Virus genome (UHGV): UHGV-0311022
Direction: 5' to 3' (one strand)
Length of the DNA stretch: 18,874 bases
From: a virus
A program made the position numbers and the translations under genes. The notes under the pieces were generated by a model. That model saw only the letters and a program-made list of their open reading frames with translations. It ran no database searches and was not told the DNA's origin. The number at the start of each line of letters is the position of its first letter. Position 1 is the first letter of the stretch. Shown here in pieces: positions 13,161 through 13,589 of this stretch.

Positions 13161-13216
13161 ATCGGCTGAACCTCAGCAACCAGTTGACGGGGACTTTCGT
13201 CCCCGTCGCGGTTTTC

Positions 13217-13357
13217 CTACTGCTTACACTGTAAGAACGCCGCAAACTCCGCTCCCCACAAATTCAGCCGGAACTCACACAACGAGCCGTGTAACATCCA
13301 GATGGTGAAGATTACCGTCATACAAATTGTGACGGTGATGAGCGATTTTTGCGACAT
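13217..13357 (-). CDS. Hok/Gef-family type I toxin-like small membrane protein (46 aa), absent from the supplied ORF track
   Basis: ATG at 13357 with a perfect AGGAGG 8 nt upstream. Translation MSQKSLITVTICMTVIFTIWMLHGSLCEFRLNLWGAEFAAFLQCKQ has one transmembrane helix followed by SLCEFR…(8 aa)…EFAAF. This aligns with Hok of plasmid R1 ([21 protein letters not shown], from memory) at identical spacing. The SD lies inside an imperfect hairpin (13358-13386). Confidence 0.6.
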   Translation of the reverse strand: MSQKSLITVTICMTVIFTIWMLHGSLCEFRLNLWGAEFAAFLQCKQ

Positions 13358-13542
13358 AGCGCTTGCCTCCTGAGTGGAGAGGCGCTAACCTTCTACTTGC
13401 TTAAGGTATGATGGTTAGGGCCTCGGGTTAAACAAAATGTTTGACTCGGGGCCTTTCCACATCAGGCCTTCAGGTTCACCTTCCAGCCATCAGCCGAAAG
13501 ACACCCGCGCATAATCTACGATTTTTGCCCTGCACGGGCAAC

Positions 13543-13567
13543 AAAAAACCCGCCATCACAGCGGGTT
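13543..13567 (-). terminator. Intrinsic terminator of the lom-like gene
   Basis: Minus-strand reading: AACCCGC-TGTGATG-GCGGGTT hairpin (7 bp stem) followed by TTTTGT, 23 nt after the lom stop codon. Confidence 0.7.
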
Positions 13568-13589
13568 ATGACATGTTGTCGGGTATTAC

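What the first reader, a model, noticed from the sequence alone, without database searches (positions are those of the whole stretch)
13161..13589. Unlisted Hok/Gef-like type I toxin ORF with a sequestered Shine-Dalgarno, between the lom terminator and the 133-aa gene
A 46-codon ORF (13357 to 13217, minus) with a perfect AGGAGG has one transmembrane helix followed by SLCEFR and EFAAF motifs at the spacing seen in Hok/Gef/RelF toxins. The SD is embedded in an imperfect hairpin (13358-13386), and a 9-bp-stem hairpin (13183-13204) follows the stop codon. Both recall the folded, translationally inactive hok mRNA. No mok-like overlapping ORF with an ATG/GTG was found and the antisense (Sok-like) RNA cannot be placed by eye, so this may be a divergent or partly decayed hok locus, or one regulated differently. 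It would be a post-segregational-killing or phage-defence-type insert next to lom.
Basis: partly seen in the sequence, partly recalled or inferred. Interest (0 to 1): 0.55.

Follow-up and report, generated by a model that had tools for sequence, protein, structure and literature searches.

The report
Second hok/Sok toxin cassette in Stx phage
The small ORF is a genuine Hok-family membrane toxin gene with its antisense Sok-type antitoxin and a folded, self-locking mRNA; the peptide is already catalogued and reported toxic, so the finding is correct but ordinary, apart from a broken mok leader frame.

Summary
The ORF at 13357..13217 (-) encodes a 46-aa Hok/Gef toxin: Pfam PF01848 33.2 bits against a cutoff of 22, and PHROG 251 at E 3e-24. 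It sits in a discrete ~375-nt hok/Sok cassette (about 13541..13150). The cassette has its own promoter, a 5'/3' tac-fbi fold-back, an SD-masking hairpin, a covarying 3' hairpin and a plus-strand Sok-like gene (TTGCCT-17-TAACCT, about 13399-13466).

The same cassette occurs in 1750 of 5426 complete E. coli genomes, where PGAP calls the ORF "Hok/Gef family protein". It appears at unrelated sites: Stx phages, P2-like and lambda-like prophages, and plasmids. The exact peptide is homolog 72_1589 in a 2026 Hok survey, where it is not among the three non-toxic constructs.

It is not hokW-sokW, the characterised locus of Sp5/933W. Those phages carry both loci, and the VT2-Sakai and GER2 records leave this one unannotated.

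The one unusual feature is mok. The leader frame is cut to 15 codons here and reads through hok in only 27 of 79 distinct relatives, yet Hok stays under purifying selection either way (dN/dS 0.28 closed, 0.24 open). That suggests mok-independent control, which is inferred and not shown.

The parts
13547..13567 (-). Intrinsic terminator of the upstream Ail/Lom gene (13590-14327). It separates lom from the hok cassette.
   Evidence: 9-bp stem followed by TTTTTGTT. Ail_Lom PF06316 at 105.5 bits for the upstream ORF.
13513..13541 (-). Predicted hok promoter: -35 TTGCCC (13541-13536), 17-nt spacer, -10 TAGATT (13518-13513). Predicted transcript start about 13510-13506.
   Evidence: Both hexamers are conserved across cassettes in unrelated genomic contexts, and sequence upstream of the -35 is unrelated. 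No transcript mapping is available.
13496..13508 (-). tac-like 5' element (core GGGUGUC at 13506-13500). It pairs with fbi in the full-length fold, or with the ucb-like box in the truncated fold.
   Evidence: the seven core tac/fbi pairs are each formed in at least 91% of sequences; tac-ucb helix 99.1% paired. The Rfam sok/hok-leader model begins here.
13448..13460 (-). ucb-like box GUGGAAAGGCCCC. It is the alternative partner of tac and forms the 5' arm of the Sok-target hairpin.
   Evidence: 12-bp tac-ucb helix, 99.1% of cells paired in 79 distinct sequences.
13415..13462 (-). Truncated mok-like leader ORF: ATG 13462, 15 codons (MWKGPESNILFNPRP), stop TAA 13417-13415, ending 57 nt before the hok ATG.
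   Evidence: The same leader ATG opens a 61-87-aa frame that reads through the hok start in some relatives (L089 and L124 encode the identical Hok).
13363..13391 (+). Predicted Sok promoter: -35 TTGCCT (13363-13368, overlapping the hok SD on the other strand), 17-nt spacer, -10 TAACCT (13386-13391).
   Evidence: TTGnnn-17/18-TAACCT in 79 of 79 cassettes. This is partly forced by the search pattern, but it also holds in all BLAST-derived copies in the alignment. The published sokW probe YO-597 contains the same hexamers and spacing.
13399..13466 (+). Predicted Sok-like antisense RNA of about 68 nt: a ~20-nt 5' tail, a 17-bp hairpin (13420-13462) and a UUUCC tail. It is complementary to the hok leader.
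   Evidence: the hairpin is -26.6 kcal/mol on the plus strand against -13.3 on the hok strand in the window, and more stable on the plus strand in 29 of 29 distinct variants (G-U asymmetry). The ends are predicted, not mapped.
13420..13424 (-). GAGGC arm, aligned to the GaGGC of the Rfam sok consensus (by my reading the position of R1's mok SD). In the truncated fold it pairs with the anti-SD.
   Evidence: Rfam alignment; helix 86.6% paired, 5 pairs with compensatory changes.
13358..13386 (-). SD-masking hairpin. The anti-SD CCUCU (13380-13376, within GCCUC 13383-13379) pairs with the SD GGAGG (13370-13366). Outer stem AGCGC/GCGCU. The AGGAGG SD is at 13371-13366.
   Evidence: outer stem 100% paired; inner stem 70.9% with alignment slippage.
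13217..13357 (-). hok CDS: 46-aa Hok/Gef toxin plus the TAG stop.
   Evidence: PF01848 33.2 bits, cutoff 22; nearest is HokA, below its cutoff; PHROG 251, E 2.8e-24; dN/dS 0.26; identical to tested homolog 72_1589.
13186..13207 (-). 3' stem-loop GACGGGGAC-GAAA-GUCCCCGUC. It is the counterpart of the protective terminal hairpin of 3'-processed hok mRNA.
   Evidence: helix 17: 99.9% paired, 4 pairs with compensatory changes. The role is inferred from R1 (PMC9841398).
13170..13183 (-). 3'-UTR strand of a second long-range helix. It pairs with the leader at 13407-13393, the region targeted by the Sok 5' tail.
   Evidence: helix 6: 13 pairs, 8 with changes on both sides.
13150..13169 (-). fbi-like 3' element: UCAGCCGA (13169-13162) and GGCACCC (13158-13152) pair with the 5' end. 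It marks the 3' edge of the cassette.
   Evidence: Homology to cassettes in other contexts ends at about 13152.

Best explanation
This is a complete hok/Sok-type type I toxin-antitoxin cassette of about 375 nt, carried as a moron between lom and the next late gene of a 933W-like Stx phage.

Inferred mechanism, by analogy with R1 and from the conserved anatomy: the minus strand is transcribed from its own promoter into a ~360-nt mRNA. This RNA folds back on itself, with 5' tac pairing to 3' fbi and a second leader/3'-UTR helix, and the hok SD is masked by an anti-SD, so the RNA is translationally inert. 3' trimming back to the conserved terminal hairpin would remove fbi. tac could then pair with the ucb-like box, opening the Sok-target hairpin. 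The freed GAGGC arm could capture the anti-SD and expose the strong hok SD. A short-lived ~68-nt antisense RNA from the plus strand covers exactly that leader region. It is proposed to block the switch and to trigger duplex decay. When Sok runs out, the 46-aa Hok peptide is made and damages the inner membrane.

In this copy the mok-like leader frame is truncated, so control is probably mok-independent.

What is shown here: family membership, cassette boundaries, conservation and covariation of both RNA folds, strand asymmetry of the Sok hairpin, and purifying selection on Hok. What comes from the literature: toxicity of this exact peptide. What is inferred: the transcripts and their ends, 3' processing, the SD switch, the role of Sok, and the biological role (lysis assistance, prophage retention or exclusion of other phages).
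For: Protein: PF01848 at 33.2 bits against a cutoff of 22; PHROG 251 'MokW-like host killing' at E 2.8e-24 over the full length; all 56 database relatives that carry a name are named Hok/Gef. The identical peptide is construct 72_1589 in Table S2 of bioRxiv 10.1101/2025.08.07.668861, and only 19_179, 60_1482 and 69_1540 were reported non-toxic.

RNA: the Rfam sok/hok-leader model matches full length at 13506-13346(-), 35.1 bits, E 3e-6. The MFE is -160 kcal/mol with z -5.6 and a 5'-3' fold-back. Across 79 distinct cassettes the full-length fold is 85.5% paired against 36-46% in slid controls, with 273 doubly changed cells against 44-93. The alternative truncated-form helices are 92% paired against 35-55%.

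Sok: a promoter is present in 79 of 79 cassettes, and the hairpin is more stable on the plus strand in 29 of 29 variants, mean -22.9 against -14.0 kcal/mol.

Selection: dN/dS is 0.26 overall, and the window differs from the 933W copy by 7 synonymous and 0 nonsynonymous changes.

Cassette nature: the same ~375 nt occurs in five unrelated contexts with sharp edges.
Against: The Rfam match is below the family's gathering score (35.1 against 59). No transcript data were available, so the promoters, the Sok ends and any 3' processing are predictions. There is no obvious intrinsic terminator after fbi. The canonical requirement for mok translation (PMC9841398) is not satisfied in this copy. Modelled SD accessibility barely changes between the full-length and truncated RNA (0.18 to 0.19), so the proposed switch is not demonstrated. 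The invariance of the Sok -10 box in the viral loci is partly forced by the search pattern used to retrieve them.
Confidence: 0.82

Rival explanations
1. Silenced relic. The hok ORF and RNA elements are still intact, but because the mok frame is broken the toxin can no longer be translated. This would resemble the inactivated chromosomal hok loci of E. coli K-12 (from my own knowledge of Pedersen and Gerdes 1999, not checked here).
For: In R1, translation of mok up to the hok SD is mandatory for Hok synthesis (PMC9841398). Here the leader ATG at 13462 gives only 15 codons and all three frames are closed just upstream of the SD. Copies with the identical Hok but an intact 61-aa frame exist (L089, L124). 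The modelled SD stays largely paired after truncation.
Against: Hok is under equally strong purifying selection in mok-closed copies (dN/dS 0.28, 284 pairs) and mok-open copies (0.24, 87 pairs). The window and the 933W copy, both mok-closed, differ by 7 synonymous and 0 nonsynonymous changes. The frame status flips within clades, while promoters, tac, fbi, ucb, anti-SD and the Sok hairpin stay conserved. The SD is a perfect AGGAGG with 8-nt spacing.
Confidence: 0.13
2. Mini-mok. Translation of the short leader ORF (13462-13415), which runs through the whole Sok-target hairpin, replaces mok. Ribosomes unwinding the hairpin would free the GAGGC arm, and Sok would act by blocking this leader ORF.
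For: The leader ATG (GAUGUGG) is nearly invariant. The Sok 3' region is complementary to it (13462-13460 lies within 13399-13466). The ORF in the window ends just after the hairpin.
Against: The leader ORF length is erratic among relatives, from 1 to 31 codons when closed, and the lambda-type cassettes have AUG-UGA. The ATG also lies in the conserved tac-ucb helix, which could explain its conservation. The SD for this ATG is weak (GAAGG, 4-nt spacing; from the sequence).
Confidence: 0.12
3. Not a gene at all. The region is merely the 5' UTR or promoter region of the 133-aa downstream gene, and the small ORF is fortuitous.
For: The annotated ATG of the 133-aa ORF (13160) lies inside the 3' end of the region. 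GER2 and VT2-Sakai annotate nothing between lom and that gene.
Against: The same cassette occurs without the 133-aa gene in P2-like and lambda-like prophages, plasmids and a chromosomal site. There are family profile matches, purifying selection and reported toxicity. PHROG 610 covers only residues 9-133 of the downstream protein, so its real start is probably 13136, outside the cassette.
Confidence: 0.02

Closest known systems
hok/Sok of plasmid R1 (the type I TA paradigm; PMC9841398)
   Same: A small single-helix toxin with the LCE core. An mRNA of about 360-400 nt with a 5' tac/3' fbi fold-back, an alternative tac-ucb pairing and a protective 3' stem-loop. An antisense RNA of about 65-70 nt with a 5' tail and one long hairpin. 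A Sok promoter overlapping the hok translation-initiation region. A full-length match to the Rfam RF01794 leader model.
   Different: There is no functional mok in this copy, whereas R1 needs the 70-codon mok. The GAGGC aligned to the Rfam GaGGC consensus has no start codon after it. Hok is 46 aa against 52 aa and ends in CKQ instead of AYESGK. The Rfam score is below gathering. A second leader/3'-UTR helix with clear covariation is predicted.
hokW-sokW of Sakai prophage 5 / 933W (PMC8621323)
   Same: It is carried by the same phage type. It is a type I hok/Sok locus, and the Sok promoter hexamers are identical (TTGCCT-17-TAACC). Complementarity is about 70 nt.
   Different: It is a different locus and a different Hok cluster. 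HokW is 51 aa and RelF/HokD-like (MKQQKAM..., cluster 35), has an annotated mokW, and lies about 12.6 kb away in the same genomes. hokW is absent from this window. The lom-adjacent locus has not been studied experimentally as a locus.
Hok cluster 72 of Escalera-Maurer et al. 2026 (bioRxiv 10.1101/2025.08.07.668861), homolog 72_1589
   Same: The peptide sequence is identical. It is listed as a high-abundance cluster, and it was cloned and tested by arabinose induction.
   Different: That study analysed only the coding sequence and states that the Mok, Sok and mRNA elements were not analysed.
HokA of E. coli K-12 (NCBIfam NF007290)
   Same: It is the best-scoring named Hok: a WM-containing helix, then SLCE, then AAFL-C.
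   Different: 38.4 bits against an equivalog cutoff of 89. In the 2026 survey HokA is in cluster 93, not 72.

Membership tests
Hok/Gef toxin family (Pfam PF01848) | Profile match at or above the curated gathering score | tested here: met
   33.2 bits against a cutoff of 22, E 4e-8, residues 8-44 on profile positions 6-42 of 42. PHROG 251, E 2.8e-24.
Hok/Gef toxin family (Pfam PF01848) | Peptide of about 45-55 aa with one N-terminal transmembrane helix and the conserved C..T in the helix, then L-C-E, then a downstream E | tested here: met
   Read from the sequence: the helix is about residues 6-22, with C12, T14, L26-C27-E28 and E37. By my own alignment these correspond to logo positions C16, T18, L30, C31, E32 and E41 of the 2026 survey.
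Hok/Gef toxin family (Pfam PF01848) | Toxic to E. coli on expression | not testable with these tools
   Literature only. The identical peptide is 72_1589 in Table S2, and it is not among the three non-toxic constructs out of 45 tested. Figure S4 itself was not seen.
hok/Sok type I TA locus (R1 paradigm) | Antisense RNA gene with its own promoter and a hairpin/U-tail, complementary to the hok leader | tested here: met
   TTGCCT-17-TAACCT on the plus strand; a 17-bp hairpin followed by UUUCC; more stable on the plus strand in 29 of 29 variants. The transcript itself has not been observed.
hok/Sok type I TA locus (R1 paradigm) | Long-range 5' tac / 3' fbi fold-back in the full-length mRNA | tested here: met
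   The core pairs GGGUGCC/GGCACCC are each formed in at least 91% of 79 distinct sequences, but they are nearly invariant and so give no covariation. The adjacent long-range helix 6 has 8 covarying pairs.
hok/Sok type I TA locus (R1 paradigm) | Alternative tac-ucb pairing and SD/anti-SD rearrangement after 3' truncation | tested here: inconclusive
   The alternative helices are conserved (99.1% and 86.6% paired, 6 covarying pairs), but predicted SD accessibility does not rise (0.18 to 0.19). 3' processing cannot be tested here.
hok/Sok type I TA locus (R1 paradigm) | Overlapping mok reading frame whose translation is coupled to hok | tested here: not met
   The window has only a 15-codon leader ORF ending 57 nt upstream of hok. 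An ATG-initiated read-through frame exists in 27 of 79 distinct relatives.
hok/Sok type I TA locus (R1 paradigm) | Stable 3' stem-loop that ends the processed mRNA | tested here: met
   helix 17 (13207-13186): 99.9% paired, 4 compensatory pairs.
Rfam RF01794 (sok / hok leader) | Covariance-model score at or above the gathering score | tested here: not met
   35.1 bits against 59. The match is full length (1-157 of 157) with E 3e-6 in the 601-nt search.
HokA equivalog (NCBIfam NF007290) | Score at or above the equivalog cutoff | tested here: not met
   38.4 bits against 89.
Known anti-phage defence systems (PADLOC-DB) | Match to any defence-system protein model | tested here: not met
   no match for Hok or for the 133-aa neighbour.

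The most novel reading that the evidence does not exclude
Cluster-72 hok cassettes, including this one, work without mok. Sok would control Hok by occupying the leader arm (GAGGC) that must capture the anti-SD, so it blocks an RNA conformational switch and not translation of a leader peptide. In addition, 933W/Sp5-type Stx phages would run two different hok/Sok systems, hokW and this one, that act together in lysis timing or prophage retention. The second locus was left intact in the published hokW-sokW deletion experiments.
Probability: 0.35. Interest if true: 0.4.

Novelty: already known. Interest (0 to 1): 0.2.

Why it matters
The main value is to annotation and to the interpretation of earlier work. 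The reference records of VT2-Sakai (Sp5) and GER2 omit a conserved toxin gene that sits among the late genes of medically important Stx phages. The published hokW-sokW deletion in Sp5, which halved phage release, left this second hok/Sok locus in place, so redundancy may have masked a larger effect. The variable mok frame combined with constant selection on Hok offers a natural test of whether mok coupling is universal in the hok family. That is a refinement of a well-known paradigm and not a new kind of system.

Tried and rejected
- The Rfam scan at gathering thresholds found nothing in the window. Only the permissive local search recovered the sok/hok-leader model. The other weak Rfam hits (Trp_leader, mir-675 and others) are chance or simply the lom terminator.
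I used a DNA pattern scan of viral contigs instead. That biases the retrieved loci towards copies with an intact AGGTTAGCGCCTC...GGAG...CAAG motif.
- The consensus promoter scan missed both the hok and the Sok promoters because their hexamers fall under its match threshold. They were placed by conservation and by comparison with sokW.
- I considered that hokW-sokW (PMC8621323) was this locus. I rejected that: the primer-derived HokW sequence differs and is absent from the window.
- I considered HokA identity and rejected it.
- Partition-function modelling of SD exposure after 3' truncation gave no clear change, so I do not claim the switch is shown.
- tblastn of the 133-aa neighbour could not settle its start codon, because it is almost confined to these phages. 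PHROG 610 did help.
- PADLOC gave nothing.
- Literature searches for hok + lom + 933W found no paper on this locus.

Full report
**Origin of the window.** The window is 99% identical to Escherichia phage GER2 and 92% identical to many Stx2a-converting phages of the 933W/Sp5 type (Sepvirinae). All large genes lie on the minus strand. The finding sits between an Ail/Lom outer-membrane gene (13590-14327; PF06316, 105.5 bits) and a 133-aa gene of unknown function (12759-13160).

**The observation.** The ORF runs from ATG 13357 to the TAG stop at 13219-13217 on the minus strand and encodes MSQKSLITVTICMTVIFTIWMLHGSLCEFRLNLWGAEFAAFLQCKQ. AGGAGG lies at 13371-13366, 8 nt upstream of the ATG. The SD lies in a hairpin spanning 13386-13358. 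The lom terminator is at 13567-13547. No ATG/GTG/TTG frame overlaps the hok start.

**Family membership of the protein.**
- Pfam HOK_GEF scores 33.2 bits against a gathering score of 22, E 4e-8.
- PHROG 251, 'MokW-like host killing' in the moron category, matches end to end at E 2.8e-24.
- NCBIfam places the protein nearest to HokA but far below the equivalog cutoff (38.4 against 89).
- The 5.8-billion-protein search returned 56 relatives, mostly 46 aa, from E. coli, Shigella and Salmonella. All that carry a name are called Hok/Gef family protein.
- PADLOC has no match.

**Already known.** A blastn of the locus finds it in 1750 of 5426 complete E. coli genomes, where PGAP annotates the ORF as 'Hok/Gef family protein'. 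This includes the 933W prophage of EDL933, in the same Lom-Hok-133aa arrangement. Phage Lyz12581Vzw also annotates it.

A 2026 survey of Hok toxins (bioRxiv 10.1101/2025.08.07.668861) catalogued 32,532 loci in 61 clusters and found hok enriched in prophages. Its Table S2 lists the identical peptide as tested homolog 72_1589. The text states that of 45 homologs tested only 19_179, 60_1482 and 69_1540 were non-toxic.

That study analysed coding sequences only and says the Mok, Sok and mRNA elements were left for future work.

**Not hokW-sokW.** The characterised hok locus of Sp5 (PMC8621323) encodes a 51-aa RelF/HokD-like peptide (MKQQKAM...), which is cluster 35 in the survey. It is absent from the window.

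933W, VT2-Sakai, PA11 and PA42 carry hokW with an annotated mokW near the right end of the record. In VT2-Sakai the two loci are about 12.6 kb apart, and PA11 and PA42 carry both. In the VT2-Sakai reference genome the identical 46-aa ORF lies unannotated at 44701-44841, between lom and orf66. These phages therefore carry two different hok loci, and the published hokW-sokW deletion left this one intact.

**A discrete mobile cassette.** In foreign contexts the homology spans only query positions 20-394, which is window 13526..13152. I fetched copies from:
- Stx podophages, after lom;
- P2-like prophages, after ogr and next to serS or ihfA;
- a lambda-like prophage, between gpJ and a tail-fibre gene;
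- a site near ykgM;
- IncI1 and IncF plasmids.

The alignment shows sharp edges. On the 5' side conservation begins at a promoter: -35 TTGCCn at 13541-13536, a 17-nt spacer, and -10 TAnAnT at 13518-13513. On the 3' side it ends just after GGCACCC (13158-13152). A pattern scan of IMG/VR added many more copies. After deduplication I had 80 distinct 395-nt cassettes, and 79 of them were aligned as A1.

**The mRNA fold.**
- *Model match and energy.* The Rfam sok model, which represents the hok-leader strand, matches full length at 13506-13346(-) with 35.1 bits and E 3e-6, below its gathering score of 59. The 381-nt transcript folds at -160 kcal/mol with z = -5.6.
- *Fold-back.* The 5' end pairs with the 3' end: GGGUGUC (13506-13500) with GGCACCC (13158-13152), and CGGCUGA with UCAGCCG. 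This is the tac/fbi arrangement of R1 as described in PMC9841398.
- *Overall support.* On A1 the full-length fold is 85.5% paired against 36-46% for slid controls, with 273 doubly changed cells against 44-93.
- *Best-supported helices.* The 3' hairpin (13207-13186) is 99.9% paired with 4 compensatory pairs. A second long-range helix between the leader (13407-13393) and the 3' UTR (13183-13170) has 8 pairs with changes on both sides. The outer stem of the SD hairpin is 100% paired.
- *tac/fbi core.* It is conserved but nearly invariant, so it gives no covariation.

**Sok.** The invariant block AGGTTAGCGC reads TAACCT on the plus strand (13386-13391). It lies 17 nt downstream of TTGCCT (13363-13368), and the published sokW probe shows the same arrangement, TTGCCT-N17-TAACC. 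All 79 cassettes have TTGnnn-17/18-TAACCT. For the viral loci this is partly forced by the search pattern, but all BLAST-derived copies in the alignment have it too.

Downstream lies a 17-bp hairpin (13420-13462) followed by UUUCC. It folds at -26.6 kcal/mol on the plus strand against -13.3 on the hok strand. It is more stable on the plus strand in 29 of 29 distinct variants, with means of -22.9 and -14.0. This G-U/C-A asymmetry is what one expects if the plus-strand RNA is the selected structure. I therefore place a Sok-like RNA at about 13399-13466 (~68 nt). Its ends are predictions.

**mok.** Two leader ATGs are conserved in the subfamily, at window 13490 and 13462. In 27 of 79 distinct cassettes one of them opens a 61-87-aa frame that reads through the hok ATG; by my recollection of the R1 sequence this is the same relative frame as mok/hok. 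In the others the frame closes at scattered positions.

In the window, ATG 13462 gives 15 codons and stops at 13417-13415, 57 nt before hok. Copies encoding the identical Hok exist with the frame open (L089, L124). The frame status is set by small indels in the hairpin loop and the spacer.

Hok is nevertheless under the same purifying selection in both groups. The median dN/dS is 0.28 for closed-closed pairs and 0.24 for open-open pairs. The window and the 933W copy, both closed, differ by 7 synonymous and 0 nonsynonymous changes. Synonymous sites are also constrained by RNA structure, so these ratios probably overestimate dN/dS.

I take this to mean that read-through of a mok frame is not what keeps this Hok functional. 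The alternative, that mok-closed copies are silent relics, is not excluded.

**A possible mok-independent switch (inferred).** Folding the RNA truncated after the 3' hairpin pairs tac with GGAAAGGCCCC (13459-13448). This is a ucb-like box and the 5' arm of the Sok-target hairpin. The released GAGGC (13424-13420), which aligns to the GaGGC of the Rfam sok consensus, pairs with GCCUC (13383-13379). In the full-length fold GCCUC masks the hok SD.

These alternative helices are 99.1% and 86.6% paired on A1, with 6 covarying pairs. Overall they are 92% paired against 35-55% in slid controls. Sok covers the GAGGC arm, so binding could hold the SD masked as well as create an RNase III substrate.

The computed SD accessibility did not rise, however (0.18 to 0.19). 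No terminator is evident after fbi. This step is a hypothesis.

**Verdict.** It is an already known kind of element, and the exact peptide is already catalogued and reported toxic. What remains of interest is modest:
- the locus is missing from reference Stx phage annotations;
- it is a second hok/Sok system alongside hokW-sokW;
- its mok frame is dispensable or decayed.

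Noticed in passing
window 13136-13160 (-): The annotated start of the 133-aa downstream gene (ATG 13160) lies inside the hok fbi element. PHROG 610 covers only residues 9-133, so the true start is probably the second ATG at 13136 (MDDKILRY...), just outside the cassette.
   Followed up: partly
L136 1702-1842 (NC_000902.1 44701-44841); hokW at NC_000902.1 57504-57656: The reference VT2-Sakai (Sp5) genome carries the identical 46-aa Hok ORF unannotated between lom and orf66, in addition to hokW about 12.6 kb away. 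PA11 and PA42 also have both loci. The published hokW-sokW deletion strain therefore still had a second hok locus.
   Followed up: yes
L006-L009, L012 (after ogr, next to serS or ihfA); L010 (between gpJ and a tail-fibre gene); L011 (near ykgM); L013, L014 (IncI1 and IncF plasmids): The same ~375-nt cassette is inserted at typical moron positions of unrelated prophage types and on plasmids, with sharp homology edges. How it moves is unexplained: I saw no flanking repeats, but I did not search for them.
   Followed up: partly
L034 4290-4684 and 5014-5408; L120 5516-5910 and 5974-6368: Two IMG/VR contigs carry two different cassettes of this subfamily, about 60 nt (L120) and 330 nt (L034) apart, encoding MPQK-type Hok variants.
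   Followed up: no
lambda-type cassettes, e.g. L010, L016, L062, L072 (leader ATG at -104): In the lambda-prophage variant the conserved leader ATG is immediately followed by TGA (a start-stop). The 5' tac element has also lost one C opposite the G-to-A change that creates the stop.
   Followed up: no
window 13185-13208 (+): Read on the plus strand, the conserved 3' hairpin is followed by CGGTTTTCCT and scores as a terminator-like site. No plus-strand gene is evident that it would terminate.
   Followed up: no
window ~12681-12692 (L001 2982-2993): The GER2 record annotates a 12-nt 'attR' between the 133-aa gene and the next late gene, although the same gene order continues uninterrupted in 933W and in the window. 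The record is also 88 kb, unusually long for this phage type.
   Followed up: no
L014 (E. albertii plasmid pEA5_1): This is a decayed copy of the cassette: the hok frame is broken (annotated as a 33-aa hok/gef fragment), the SD is weakened to AAGAG and the Sok -35 region is altered, while AGGTTAGCGC is retained.
   Followed up: no
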